A stretch of 64,000 nt of DNA from Escherichia coli (GTDB taxonomy: Bacteria; Pseudomonadota; Gammaproteobacteria; Enterobacterales; Enterobacteriaceae): assembly GCF_017348835.2 (NCBI RefSeq), contig NZ_CP071375.1; one strand, 5' to 3'. Position numbers: made by a program. Below are positions 55,501 to 58,500 of the stretch, piece after piece. Position 1 is the first letter of the stretch; every line of letters starts with the position of its first letter.

Positions 55501-58500
55501 GGTTGTTTCGCTTGTTGACTCAGCGTTTTGCTTTTCTGACTCAGGGCGGAGCAGCACCAGAAACGCCAAATCCGCGCCTGCCACCACTCGATTCCGGCAT
55601 TCTTGGCGGCTACATTGCGCCCGATAATCTCACCATCACGTTATCGGTGGGTCACTCATTGTTTGATGAGCGCTTTGGCCTTGCGCCACAGATGCCAAAA
55701 AAGCTGCAGAAGATGACGCGTTTCCCCAACGACTCGCTGGATGCGGCGTTATGCCATGGTGATGTGTTGCTACAAATTTGCGCCAACACCCAGGACACGG
55801 TGATCCATGCTCTGCGCGATATCATCAAACACACGCCGGATTTGCTCAGTGTGCGCTGGAAGCGGGAAGGGTTTATTTCCGATCACGCAGCGCGTAGTAA
55901 AGGCAAAGAGACGCCGATTAATTTGCTGGGTTTCAAAGATGGCACTGCCAATCCCGATAGCCAGAATGATAAGTTGATGCAAAAAGTGGTGTGGGTAACG
56001 GCAGATCAGCAGGAGCCTGCGTGGACAATCGGTGGCAGCTATCAGGCAGTACGCTTGATTCAGTTTCGAGTGGAATTTTGGGACAGAACGCCGCTGAAAG
56101 AACAACAGACGATTTTTGGCCGTGATAAGCAAACCGGTGCGCCGCTGGGAATGCAGCATGAGCATGATGTGCCTGATTACGCCAGCGACCCGGAAGGGAA
56201 GGTGATCGCGCTGGACAGCCATATCCGGCTGGCGAATCCCCGCACGGCGGAGAGTGAGTCCAGCCTGATGCTGCGTCGCGGCTACAGTTATTCGTTGGGG
56301 GTCACCAACTCCGGACAACTGGATATGGGGTTGCTGTTTGTCTGCTACCAACACGATCTGGAAAAAGGCTTCCTGACAGTACAAAAAAGGCTCAATGGCG
56401 AAGCGCTGGAGGAATACGTTAAACCTATCGGCGGCGGTTATTTTTTTGCGCTGCCGGGAGTGAAGGACGCGAACGATTATCTCGGAAGCGCATTATTGCG
56501 GGTTTAATGTTTTTAGGCGGATGAGGCATTTGTGTGCAGATGCCTGATGCGGCGCTTGCGATGCTTATGATGCCCACAATCGGTGCGGGTTTGGTAGGCT
56601 GGATCAGGCGTTCACGCCGCATCCGGCGATCGTGCGTTGATGCCTGATGCGACGCTTGCGCGTCTTATCATGCCTACAATCGGTGCGGGTTTGGTAGGCT
56701 GGATAAGGCGTTCACGCCGCATCCGGCGTTCGTGCGCTGATGCCTGATGCGACGCTTGCGCGTCTTATCATGCCTACAATCGGTGCGGGTTTGGTAGGCT
56801 GGATAAGGCGTTCACGCCGCATCCGGCGTTCGTGCGCTGATGCCTGATGCGACGCTTGCGCGTCTTATCATGCCTACAATCGGTGCGGGTTCGGTAGGCT
56901 GGATAAGGCGTTCACGCCGCATCCGACGTTCGTGCGCTGATGCCTGATGCGACGCTTGCGCGTCTTATCATGCCTACAATCGGTGCGGGTTCGGTAGGCT
57001 GGATAAGGTGTTCACGCCGCATCCGGCGTTCGTGCGCTGATGCCTGATGCGACGCTTGCGCGTCTTATCATGCCTACAATCGGTGCGGGTTTGGTAGGCT
57101 GGATAAGGCGTTCACGCCGCATCCGGCGTTCGTGCGCTGATGCCTGATGCGACGCTTGCGCGTCTTATCATGCTTACAATCGGTGCGGGTTTGGTAGGCT
57201 GGATCAGGCGTTCACGCCGCATCCGGCGATCGTGCACTGATGCCTGATGTGAATCCTGCTGAAAGCACACAGCTTTTTTCATCTCTGTCATCACTCTGTC
57301 ATCTTTCCAGTAGAAACTAATGTCACTAAAATGGTGTTTTATAGTTAAATATAAGTGAATATATTGTTGCAATGAATGCGAGATCTGTTGTACTTATTAA
57401 GTAGCAGCGGAAGTTCCCGGCAGTGATAGTCAGTCACTATGGAGATCGCGGATGGTAACGTCCTGTACTGGACATGTTTTAGATAATCAACGCGCCACCA
57501 CTCGCGGAGTTTTCTCCTCCGGTAGTCATCTCGTCACTTTGCATTTTCAACCTCATCCTTTCTTTTCATGTGTTACCGACGCCGTAAACGGTGCGCGTAG
57601 CCGTTTTTCGGCATTTTATCCAAAAGCAAACTATGGCTTACAAGGAAGCCAACCCTCTGATGTTCGTGCGCATAATCGCGCTGCCAACGGCGCGTGTGAT
57701 GAATACAAACAACTCAAGGTGCTCTCCATGGGAAGACAAAAAGCAGTGATCAAAGCTCGTCGCGAGGCAAAACGTGTGCTGAGACGGGATTCGCGCAGCC
57801 ATAAGCAGCGTGAAGAAGAATCGGTCACCTCGCTTGTGCAGATGAGCGGCGTAGAAGCCATTGGTATGGCCCGCGACAGTCGCGATACCTCGCCCATCCT
57901 CGCGCGAAATGAAGCGCAATTGCACTATCTGAAGGCTATTGAGAGTAAGCAGCTGATATTCGCTACGGGCGAAGCCGGGTGCGGAAAAACCTGGATCAGC
58001 GCAGCAAAAGCGGCAGAGGCCCTGATACATAAGGATGTCGACAGGATTATCGTCACCCGTCCAGTTCTGCAAGCCGATGAAGATCTTGGCTTCTTACCTG
58101 GAGATATCGCAGAAAAGTTTGCTCCCTATTTTCGCCCGGTATACGACGTGCTGGTCCGGCGCTTAGGGGCTTCCTTTATGCAGTACTGCCTGCGACCGGA
58201 AATAGGGAAGGTGGAAATTGCGCCGTTCGCCTATATGCGTGGACGTACCTTTGAAAATGCAGTCGTCATTCTTGACGAGGCGCAGAATGTGACTGCCGCG
58301 CAAATGAAAATGTTTTTAACCCGCCTCGGGGAGAACGTGACGGTTATCGTCAACGGTGATATCACGCAATGCGATTTACCTCGCGGCGTGCACTCCGGAT
58401 TAAGTGACGCACTGGAACGTTTCGAAGAAGATGAAATGGTCGGGATCGTCCGATTCGGTAAAGAGGATTGCGTACGTTCGGCACTTTGCCAACGTACGCT

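What the first reader, a model, noticed from the sequence alone, without database searches (positions are those of the whole stretch)
56521..57250. Seven-copy 100-bp BIME array between efeB and phoH
The units are nearly identical and exactly 100 bp in period, each with two REP palindromes. Such arrays bind gyrase/IHF and vary in copy number between strains; this one is long, and the ORFs the track calls inside it are artefacts.
Basis: seen in the sequence. Interest (0 to 1): 0.35.

Follow-up and report, generated by a model that had tools for sequence, protein, structure and literature searches.

The report
Expanded REP (BIME-2) repeat array
Between the iron-uptake gene efeB and the phosphate-starvation gene phoH, this E. 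coli strain carries seven tandem 100-bp copies of a well-known non-coding palindromic repeat where most strains carry one, so it is a rare long allele of an ordinary, already described kind of element.

Summary
Window 56540-57239 holds seven head-to-tail 100-bp units with no indels (TRF: 7.2 copies, 96% match). They are flanked by a decayed Y-REP remnant (56514-56539) and a 13-nt Z2 stub (57240-57252). The array lies between efeB and the Pho box of phoH.

Each unit is Z2 REP, 16-nt spacer, inverted Y REP, 12-nt linker, which is a textbook BIME-2. The first unit's Z2 no longer folds. No IHF site is present, because IHF sites belong to BIME-1.

Copy number does vary among 5,426 complete E. coli genomes, but only rarely:
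- at least 42 genomes have more than one unit (alleles of 2, 3, 4, 6, 7 and 8);
- only two have seven units, the pig isolates PE164 and F2_81, both identical to the window;
- one has eight;
- the rest have one.

Those two independent assemblies argue against an assembly error. The small ORFs inside the array are artefacts.

The architecture and the 100-bp period match K-12's REP325. The single-unit K-12 allele has no such module.

Verdict: a known kind of element, a low-interest VNTR-like allele. Gyrase binding, RNA stabilisation and naRNA-like roles are inferred, not shown.

The parts
55236..56507 (+). efeB, the last gene of the efeUOB iron-uptake operon. Its transcription runs towards the array.
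   Evidence: NCBIfam TIGR01412 at 618 bits, full length. PGAP annotates efeB in PE164 and F2_81.
56514..56539 (.). Decayed Y-REP remnant plus linker at the left edge of the array. It is the same in all short-flank alleles.
   Evidence: N96 and Z0117EC0005 have an intact Y here (GAGGCGGATAAGGCATTTACGCCGCATCCGGCGTTCGTGCGC). The window form lacks about 18 nt of it. It forms no hairpin: DNA MFE -1.3, z = -0.11.
56540..56639 (+). Unit 1. The Z2 at 56540-56577 is degenerate and the Y at 56594-56627 is intact.
   Evidence: 9 differences from the consensus unit. The Z2 does not fold. The same unit variant opens the 6-unit allele of strain 504239.
56640..56739 (+). Unit 2, equal to the consensus unit: Z2 56640-56677, spacer 56678-56693, inverted Y 56694-56727, linker 56728-56739.
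   Evidence: Sequence. REP cores at 56642 (+) and 56714 (-). DNA hairpins of -7.1 (Z2) and -9.0 (Y) kcal/mol.
56740..56839 (+). Unit 3, identical to unit 2.
   Evidence: 100/100 identity.
56840..56939 (+). Unit 4, with 2 SNPs: spacer TTCGG and Y foot CCGACG.
56940..57039 (+). Unit 5, with 2 SNPs: TTCGG and AAGGTG. The same variant occurs in the A5 and 504239 alleles.
   Evidence: Unit label 3.
57040..57139 (+). Unit 6, identical to units 2 and 3.
57140..57239 (+). Unit 7, the edge unit. It has 4 SNPs, including the GATCGTGCACTG linker that terminal units of other alleles and the K-12 single unit also carry.
57240..57252 (+). Truncated Z2 stub (ATGCCTGATGTGA) that ends the repeat.
   Evidence: Present in all short-flank alleles and absent from the divergent S65EC-type allele.
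56597..57174 (+). Six Y-linker-Z2 modules matching Rfam naRNA4, at 56597-56674, 56697-56774, 56797-56874, 56897-56974, 56997-57074 and 57097-57174.
   Evidence: RF02564 at 70.4-76.1 bits against a gathering score of 59.5, full model 1-77, + strand. The - strand scores 36-44 bits.
57258..57279 (+). Weak terminator-like feature: a 4-bp stem (GCTG...CAGC) followed by T6. It is conserved in every allele.
   Evidence: Read from the sequence and seen in the whole-array fold. It falls below the scanner's criteria, and no + strand terminator was called.
57285..57302 (+). Pho box of the phoH promoter (CTGTCATCACTCTGTCAT), starting 33 nt after the Z2 stub that ends the repeat.
   Evidence: Exact match to CTGTCATNNNNCTGTCAY. 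The window has 2 hits at up to 1 mismatch against 0.06 expected. That this pattern is the PhoB site is established knowledge.
57452..58516 (+). phoH in its long 354-aa form. PGAP starts the gene at 57728.
   Evidence: NCBIfam NF007827 at 511 bits. Annotations.

Best explanation
This is a BIME-2 element, a non-coding mosaic of alternating Z2 and inverted Y REP palindromes. It sits in the efeB-phoH intergenic region and has been amplified in place from the usual single unit to seven 100-bp units. The most likely amplification mechanism is out-of-register homologous recombination between sister chromosomes or replication slippage. Both are helped by the partial REP copies that flank the single-unit form. 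The same processes also contract the array and homogenise its interior.

Functionally it should behave like any BIME-2. As DNA, it is a cluster of preferred gyrase binding and cleavage sites downstream of the efeUOB operon. As RNA, when efeUOB transcription reads into it, it forms a run of stable hairpins that protect the mRNA 3' end and attenuate read-through towards the Pho-regulated phoH promoter, whose Pho box starts 33 nt after the repeat.

Shown here: the anatomy, the class assignment, the allelic series and the reality of the array. Inferred: the amplification mechanism and every functional role. The seven-unit length is most simply a near-neutral VNTR state of one rare pig-associated lineage.
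For: Anatomy:
- Period 100, 7.2 copies, no indels.
- 7 Z2 cores on + alternate with 7 Y cores on -.
- GTAG/CTAC feet and short linkers of 16 and 12 nt.
- The hairpins fold, and the RNA modules have z = -3.6 to -4.4 against shuffles.

Class: this matches the BIME-2 definition (z2 + y, short linkers, tandem copies, copy number variable between strains; PMC3333891). No IHF site is present.

Allelic series:
- Lengths between fixed anchors are 171, 271, 371, 471, 671, 771 and 871 nt in the short-flank family.
- 42 multi-unit genomes were found among 5,426.
- An independent one-unit search gave 115 extra units against the 114 this census predicts, with a maximum of 8.

Recombination signature: edge units are the most divergent and interior units are identical or near-identical. 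Unit variants are shared between alleles of different length: the window reads [0,1,1,2,3,1,4], strain 504239 [0,16,17,3,18,19] and A5 [10,1,11,3...]. Adjacent identical units in the window, N96 and 2014C-4587 point to recent duplications.

The array is real: PE164 (China) and F2_81 (Australia) carry it base for base.

Function, from the literature: gyrase cleavage is enriched in BIME-2, mainly in y REPs (PMC6379681). REPs act as terminators, mRNA stabilisers and topological insulators (PMC3333891).
Against: No functional property was tested here. No transcription, gyrase or RNA-stability data exist for this locus or strain, and the held supplements of the gyrase map do not mention efeB or phoH. 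The sequence data cannot separate recombination or slippage from RAYT-mediated amplification. Neutrality is assumed. The three longest alleles (8, 7 and 7 units) all come from pigs, which could reflect either shared lineage or selection. Two-unit alleles in divergent phylogroups may be undercounted.
Confidence: 0.82

Rival explanations
1. The expanded array is a second REP325-like locus. Read-through from efeUOB is processed into six roughly 77-nt Y-linker-Z2 RNAs (naRNA-like) that, together with HU, bridge cruciform DNA and help compact the nucleoid. This would be a gain of function over the single-unit allele. It does not exclude the main explanation.
For: - Six + strand hits to Rfam RF02564 naRNA4 score above gathering (70-76 bits against 59.5).
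- REP325 has the same period of 100, 5.8 copies, and the same Y-then-Z2 order relative to the upstream gene.
- Single-unit K-12 and S65EC alleles have no hit, so complete modules appear only on expansion.
- REP325 and naRNA4 function is reported in PMC4550694.
Against: - The scores are well below those of authentic REP325 units (95-111 bits).
- The model also hits an unrelated single BIME-2 at 32134-32212 (82.5 bits), so it detects BIME-2 in general rather than a specific RNA gene.
- The linker and spacer sequences differ from REP325.
- The two-hairpin fold is 6.7 kcal/mol less stable than a long Y:Z2 hairpin here (-33.7 against -40.4), whereas the REP325 unit folds as two hairpins.
- There are no expression or HU-binding data.
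Confidence: 0.12
2. The amplification was catalysed by the REP-associated tyrosine transposase (TnpA-REP, also called RAYT). In this model the enzyme cleaves at CT sites in iREPs and linkers and adds BIME units by strand transfer, rather than units being gained through homologous recombination or slippage.
For: TnpA-REP cleaves and recombines BIME substrates in vitro, and a model for BIME amplification has been proposed (PMC3333891). The units carry the required GTAG-footed REPs and CT-containing linkers.
Against: The same paper found only minor differences in REP and BIME copy number between strains with and without tnpA-REP. Every length change is a whole 100-bp unit in register, and unit variants are shuffled between alleles, which homology-driven exchange already explains. 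Whether this strain carries rayT was not checked.
Confidence: 0.12
3. The seven copies are an assembly artefact, meaning a repeat that was mis-expanded or mis-collapsed.
For: A 725-bp array of near-identical 100-bp units cannot be spanned by short reads. Read data are not available here.
Against: Two complete genomes from different laboratories and continents carry the identical array with the same internal SNP pattern. Other genomes show a graded series of 2 to 8 units that share unit variants. Four of the seven units carry private SNPs that anchor their order.
Confidence: 0.02
4. The array encodes small repeated peptides, namely the ORFs called inside it.
For: Mechanical ORFs of 35-37 codons recur in every unit on both strands. 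Two longer ORFs of 65 and 86 aa straddle the edges.
Against: - The period of 100 is not a multiple of 3, so no frame is kept from one unit to the next.
- ORFs on opposite strands overlap each other.
- The longest stop-free run is 47-51 codons.
- There are no Pfam matches at E <= 1.
- PGAP annotates nothing here in PE164, F2_81 or the other alleles.
- The sequence is fully explained as REP palindromes.
Confidence: 0.01

Closest known systems
BIME-2 family of E. coli REP/BIME elements (Gilson/Bachellier classification, as summarised in Ton-Hoang et al. 2012, PMC3333891)
   Same: Alternating z2 and y REPs in inverted orientation with GTAG/CTAC feet, short linkers, tandem copies and an extragenic position. 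[quoted passage not shown]
   Different: Nothing in kind. This allele has 14 REPs plus 2 partial ones, and one of the 14 is decayed. It is far longer than the single unit that about 99% of E. coli genomes carry at this locus.
REP325 / naRNA4 of E. coli K-12 (yjdM-yjdN intergenic; Rfam RF02564; Qian et al. 2015, PMC4550694)
   Same: A tandem BIME-2 array with exactly the same 100-bp period and Y-linker-Z2 modules of 77-78 nt. The orientation relative to the upstream gene is the same. Six modules pass the Rfam gathering score.
   Different: The linker and spacer sequences differ: GTTCGTGCGCTG and AATCGGTGCGGGTTTG here against AACGGTGCCGAC and AAATTCCCGCACCCTCC in REP325. The model scores are lower (70-76 bits against 95-111). 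One base pair at the foot of each Z2 stem is broken (CATGCC instead of CAGGCC). The predicted RNA prefers a long Y:Z2 hairpin. No evidence exists of transcription, HU binding or a nucleoid phenotype. The array is present only in rare strains.
BIME-1 / RIB / RIP elements (IHF-binding)
   Same: They contain a y REP and are extragenic.
   Different: BIME-1 pairs y with z1 across a long L linker that carries an IHF site, and it occurs as a single copy. Here the partner is z2, the linkers are short, the unit is tandem and no IHF consensus is present.
Bacterial VNTR / minisatellite loci
   Same: Tandem units, length alleles in exact unit multiples, divergent edge units and a homogenised interior.
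   Different: The unit is itself a pair of dispersed-repeat palindromes. Polymorphism is low, with about 0.8% of genomes not carrying the single-unit form.

Membership tests
BIME-2 | Built from z2-type and y-type REPs alternating in inverted orientation | tested here: met
   7 cores GCCTGATGCG(A/G)CGC lie on + and 7 cores G(C/T)CGGATGCGGCGT on -, alternating with 72/28-nt spacing. The units align over the full length of the Y-l-Z2 consensus of RF02564. They are near-identical to the Y and Z2 of REP325.
BIME-2 | Each REP is a 30-40-nt imperfect palindrome with a conserved GTAG (or CTAC) foot | tested here: met
   GTAGGCTGG... and ...ATGCCTAC occur in units 2-6; the foot reads CCAC in unit 1 and TTAC in unit 7. 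DNA hairpins reach -7.1 (Z2) and -9.0 (Y) kcal/mol. The exception is the Z2 of unit 1, which is decayed (-2.2, z = +1.08).
BIME-2 | Short linkers and multiple tandem copies | tested here: met
   The linkers are 16 nt and 12 nt. There are seven units of exactly 100 bp.
BIME-2 | Number of tandem copies at a given locus varies between strains | tested here: met
   Alleles of 1, 2, 3, 4, 6, 7 and 8 units were found, and 42 of 5,426 genomes have more than one unit.
BIME-2 | Preferred DNA gyrase binding and cleavage, mainly in y REPs | not testable with these tools
   This property comes from the literature only (PMC6379681). The held supplements contain no entry for efeB or phoH.
BIME-1 / RIB-RIP (IHF-binding) | z1 REP plus a long L linker carrying an IHF site (WATCAANNNNTTR), single copy | tested here: not met
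   The IHF consensus gives 0 hits in 56508-57252 at 0 or 1 mismatch, against 67 hits window-wide at 1 mismatch. The partner REP is z2 and the element is tandem.
naRNA4 (Rfam RF02564) / REP325-like | Covariance-model score at or above the curated gathering score | tested here: met
   Six + strand hits score 70.4-76.1 bits against 59.5. Authentic REP325 units score 95-111. The model also hits a generic single BIME-2 at 32134-32212.
naRNA4 (Rfam RF02564) / REP325-like | RNA folds as two separate hairpins (Y and Z2) joined by a linker | tested here: inconclusive
   The CM alignment places both stems with one non-standard pair. The MFE, however, is a single long Y:Z2 hairpin at -40.4, with the two-hairpin form at -33.7 kcal/mol. 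The REP325 unit folds as two hairpins at -42.8.
naRNA4 (Rfam RF02564) / REP325-like | Transcribed and processed to about 77-nt RNAs that bind HU and condense DNA | not testable with these tools
   No expression or binding data are available. Only the co-orientation with efeUOB and the lack of a strong terminator before the array are seen.
VNTR / minisatellite | Head-to-tail units with length polymorphism in whole-unit steps | tested here: met
CRISPR array | Identical repeats separated by unique spacers | tested here: not met
   Both inter-REP segments are themselves repeated in every unit, and there are no unique spacers.

The most novel reading that the evidence does not exclude
Expansion from one to seven units turned a BIME that has no complete Y-linker-Z2 module (K-12 has 0 Rfam hits) into a six-module, REP325-like array. 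This array is placed in the read-through path of the Fur- and acid-regulated efeUOB operon. A rare pig-associated E. coli lineage may therefore have gained a second, condition-dependent source of naRNA-like RNAs, or an unusually strong gyrase site, that changes nucleoid compaction or insulates phoH from efeUOB.
Probability: 0.06. Interest if true: 0.45.

Novelty: already known. Interest (0 to 1): 0.18.

Why it matters
It matters little beyond housekeeping. The result marks 56514-57252 as non-coding repeat DNA, so gene callers should ignore the small ORFs there. It corrects the IHF attribution. It also gives a concrete census for one BIME-2 locus: 1 unit in about 99% of 5,426 complete genomes and 2 to 8 units in at least 42. 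That census documents how slowly such arrays change and shows that they expand recurrently in different backgrounds.

The allele could serve as a lineage marker for the PE164/F2_81 clone. It also offers a natural 1-unit versus 7-unit contrast for anyone testing what BIME-2 dosage does to gyrase distribution, mRNA 3'-end stability or naRNA-type RNAs.

Tried and rejected
- **Outgroup search.** Two scans of the species-representative genome collection, with the locus-specific spacer patterns CTACAATCRGTGCGGGTTYGGTAGG and GCCTACAATCRGTGCGGGT, returned nothing. Not even E. coli was hit, so the result is uninformative. The ancestral copy number could not be polarised.
- **Locus-specific experimental evidence.** The held supplements of the gyrase Topo-Seq paper do not mention efeB or phoH. 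No supplements are held for the naRNA4 paper. The main text of the BIME/RAYT paper does not mention this locus.
- **VNTR/MLVA literature.** A search linked to phoH, efeB and ycdB gave only irrelevant typing papers.
- **Sequencing technology.** The PE164 paper (PMC12233904) has no PacBio or Nanopore mention in its text.
- **Coding hypothesis.** Rejected.
- **CRISPR-like reading.** Rejected, because there are no unique spacers.
- **BIME-1/IHF reading.** Rejected.
- **REP-mediated translational down-regulation of efeB.** I recall, without having checked it here, that this needs a REP within about 15 nt of the stop codon. It seems unlikely here: the first intact hairpin-forming REP is the Y of unit 1 at 56594, 87 nt after the stop. 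The sequence nearer the stop is a decayed remnant and a non-folding Z2.
- **Intrinsic terminator.** None was found on the + strand between efeB and phoH by the scanner. Only a weak 4-bp stem plus T6 lies at 57258-57279.
- **Other Rfam matches in the array.** The matches to plant miRNA families are far below their gathering scores and are artefacts of the palindromic repeat.
- **Presence of rayT in this strain.** Not checked.
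Full report
**1. Is it there?**

Yes. Tandem Repeats Finder reports a single array at 56525-57249 with period 100, 7.2 copies, 96% matches, no indels and score 1303. 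Reading the sequence in REP register gives seven 100-bp units starting at 56540, 56640 ... 57140.
- Units 2, 3 and 6 are identical.
- Units 4 and 5 differ from them at 2 positions each.
- Unit 7 differs at 4 positions and unit 1 at 9.

The repeat homology continues on both sides. On the left, 56514-56539 is a Y-REP remnant. Strains N96 and Z0117EC0005 have an intact Y there, and the window form lacks about 18 nt of it. On the right, 57240-57252 is the first 13 nt of an eighth Z2.

This is far beyond chance. The REP core GCCKGATGCGRCGY occurs 23 times in the window against 0.31 expected from shuffles, and 14 of those hits are in the array.

efeU, efeO and efeB (55236-56507) lie upstream and phoH (57452-58516) downstream, all on the + strand.

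**2. What is it?**

Each unit reads:
- ATGCCTGATGCGACGCTTGCGCGTCTTATCATGCCTAC (Z2 REP with a CTAC foot),
- AATCGGTGCGGGTTTG (16-nt spacer),
- GTAGGCTGGATAAGGCGTTCACGCCGCATCCGGC (Y REP, inverted, with a GTAG foot),
- GTTCGTGCGCTG (12-nt linker).

This fits the published definition of BIME-2: z2 plus y, short linkers, multiple tandem copies, and a copy number that differs between strains at a given locus (Ton-Hoang et al. 2012, PMC3333891). It does not fit BIME-1, which pairs y with z1 across a long L linker that carries the IHF site and occurs singly. In agreement, the IHF consensus WATCAANNNNTTR has no match in 56508-57252 even with one mismatch allowed, while the window as a whole has 67 such matches.

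Inner Z2 and Y REPs fold as DNA hairpins at -7.1 and -9.0 kcal/mol. The Z2 of unit 1 has accumulated substitutions and no longer folds (-2.2, z = +1.08). The array therefore holds 13 intact REPs, one decayed REP and two partial ones.

**3.

Rfam's naRNA4 family (RF02564) matches six times on the + strand, at 56597, 56697 ... 57097. Scores are 70.4-76.1 bits against a gathering score of 59.5, and each hit covers the whole 77-position model. The - strand scores only 36-44 bits.

naRNA4 is one of the RNAs of REP325, the six-unit BIME-2 between yjdM and yjdN of K-12. REP325 is reported to act with HU in nucleoid condensation (Qian et al. 2015, PMC4550694). I fetched REP325 from MG1655. It also has a period of exactly 100, with 5.8 copies. 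Read in the direction of its upstream gene, it has the same Y-linker-Z2-spacer order.

The resemblance has limits:
- Authentic REP325 units score 95-111 bits.
- The linker and spacer sequences differ.
- The foot of each Z2 stem here has one broken pair.
- The RNA of a module here prefers one long Y:Z2 hairpin (-40.4 kcal/mol) over two separate hairpins (-33.7). The REP325 unit folds as two hairpins (-42.8).
- The model also hits an unrelated single BIME-2 at 32134-32212 with 82.5 bits, so it works as a general BIME-2 detector.

One consequence is still worth stating. The single-unit K-12 and S65EC alleles have no hit. Complete Y-linker-Z2 modules exist at this locus only in expanded alleles, at roughly n-1 modules for n units.

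**4. Variation between strains**

A 1,201-bp query across the locus matched 5,425 of 5,426 complete E. coli genomes. In an evenly spaced sample of the ranking, every efeB-phoH match except PE164 spanned about 580-606 bp, which means one unit.

To list the exceptions I repeated the search with 60-bp flanks and an E-value limit that a one-unit locus cannot reach. I then counted units directly in fetched loci. The result:

| Units | Genomes |
|---|---|
| 8 | A5 (pig) |
| 7 | PE164 and F2_81 (both pig) |
| 6 | six genomes (504239, 67-1, TW11681, WS1933D, S1-NGR-02-A, LR883000) |
| 4 | twelve genomes, at least two distinct allele types |
| 3 | eight genomes |
| 2 | thirteen genomes |

That is 42 genomes in all. 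Three further hits were other BIME arrays.

Between fixed anchors, the short-flank alleles measure 171, 271, 371, 471, 671, 771 and 871 nt, so they always differ by multiples of 100.

An independent check supports the census. A search with one consensus unit reports each tandem copy as a separate place. It gave 4,371 places in 4,256 genomes, or 115 extra units, where the census predicts 114. The maximum was 8.

About 1,170 genomes carry a more divergent single-unit allele, for example S65EC, which measures 177 nt and has no Z2 stub. That check did not assess them. Nine of nine sampled had one unit, but two-unit alleles in that group could be undercounted.

**5. How the alleles relate**

I labelled each distinct unit sequence with a number:
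- window: [0,1,1,2,3,1,4]
- 504239: [0,16,17,3,18,19]
- A5: [10,1,11,3,12,13,14,15]
- TB06052 type: [6,1,7,8]
- 2014C-4587: [27,1,1,28]
- VE-T9: [20,21,22]
- LHM10-1: [20,21]
- N96: [23,23,24]

Edge units are the most divergent and interior units are the most uniform. Some variants (0, 1 and 3) are shared by alleles of different length. Several alleles contain adjacent identical units. This is the pattern expected from repeated out-of-register exchange or slippage. Expansion has occurred in several backgrounds, and VE-T9 looks like LHM10-1 plus one duplicated unit. The sequence data cannot distinguish this mechanism from the RAYT (TnpA-REP) amplification model of PMC3333891. That paper also reports little difference in BIME numbers between strains with and without the enzyme.

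**6. Is it an assembly error?**

Unlikely. PE164 (a piglet isolate from Nanjing; PMC12233904) and F2_81 (a pig rectal swab from Australia) both match the window at 100% over the locus and over 20 kb elsewhere. The next genome is at 98.0%. They are one rare lineage assembled independently, and both show the same seven units with the same internal SNPs. I could not inspect the reads.

**7. ORFs**

Mechanical ORFs of 35-37 codons recur once per unit on both strands. Two longer ones (65 and 86 aa, - strand) straddle the edges.
- A period of 100 is not a multiple of 3, so no frame persists from unit to unit.
- The longest stop-free run is 47-51 codons.
- None has a Pfam match.
- PGAP annotates nothing between efeB and phoH in any expanded allele.

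**8. Likely function**

The array is co-oriented with efeUOB. It starts 33 nt after the efeB stop codon. The scanner calls no + strand intrinsic terminator before or inside it. The only candidate is a weak 4-bp stem plus T6 at 57258-57279, conserved in all alleles. A perfect Pho box (57285-57302) follows 33 nt after the Z2 stub that ends the repeat.

My best reading is the generic BIME-2 one. As DNA, it is a cluster of gyrase sites downstream of an inducible operon; gyrase cleavage is enriched in BIME-2, mostly in y REPs, and is independent of transcription (PMC6379681). As RNA, its hairpins stabilise the efeUOB 3' end and damp read-through into phoH. All of this is inferred from the family and not shown for this locus. 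Seven units rather than one is most simply a near-neutral length state.

**9. Novelty and score**

The kind of element, its copy-number polymorphism, its gyrase association and the REP325/naRNA4 parallel are all published. The only new information is the locus-specific census and the identification of a rare 7-unit allele in one pig-associated clone. A specialist would not be surprised. Interest is low (0.18).

The most novel reading that remains open is that expansion created a functional, condition-dependent second naRNA source or a super-strong gyrase site. It has no direct support (probability about 0.06).

Noticed in passing
window 58318-58511 (-): Rfam Ysr251 (a Yersinia antisense sRNA family) matches at 188 bits against a gathering score of 100, antisense to the 3' end of phoH. 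The same hit appears in the other E. coli loci fetched. It may simply reflect conservation of the phoH coding sequence.
   Followed up: no
window 32134-32212 (-): A separate single BIME-2 module (Z2 core at 32154, Y core at 32182) scores 82.5 bits on the naRNA4 model, higher than any unit of the array. This shows that the model detects generic BIME-2 pairs.
   Followed up: partly
window 38096-38138 (-) and 38159-38172: An Rfam ES036 (CssrF) sRNA hit lies just above its gathering score (38.5 against 37.6), next to an isolated Y-type REP core.
   Followed up: no
window 21030-21452 (+): An Rfam cspA thermoregulator match at 158.8 bits, presumably the 5' UTR of a cold-shock gene paralogue.
   Followed up: no
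window 57452-58516 versus 57728-58516: The phoH start is annotated inconsistently. The long 354-aa ORF is used in MG1655, while PGAP uses the 262-aa form in PE164 and most genomes. In strain VE-T9 a separate 'hypothetical protein' is annotated over the 5' extension.
   Followed up: no
window 53206-54045 (+): efeU is an intact 279-aa ORF here, with a full-length EfeU/Ftr1 match. From memory, efeU is a frameshifted pseudogene in K-12. If so, the operon upstream of the array should be functional in this strain.
   Followed up: no
efeB-phoH locus in L001, L003, L009, L006, L012, L014 and hits H110-H111: The three longest alleles (8, 7 and 7 units) come from pigs, as do 8 of the 42 multi-unit genomes. 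This was not tested against the host make-up of the collection or corrected for shared ancestry.
   Followed up: no
window 35252-35269 (+): A second Pho-box-like site (ATGTCATATTTCTGTCAC, 1 mismatch) lies elsewhere in the window.
   Followed up: no
window 56508-57290 (+): Folded as one RNA, the whole array forms a single giant quasi-palindromic hairpin (-409.6 kcal/mol), because Z2 and inverted Y are near-complements of each other. The same symmetry in single-stranded DNA could favour slippage during replication.
   Followed up: partly
window 2123-2210 (-): A tRNA-Ser (anticodon TGA) gene.
   Followed up: yes
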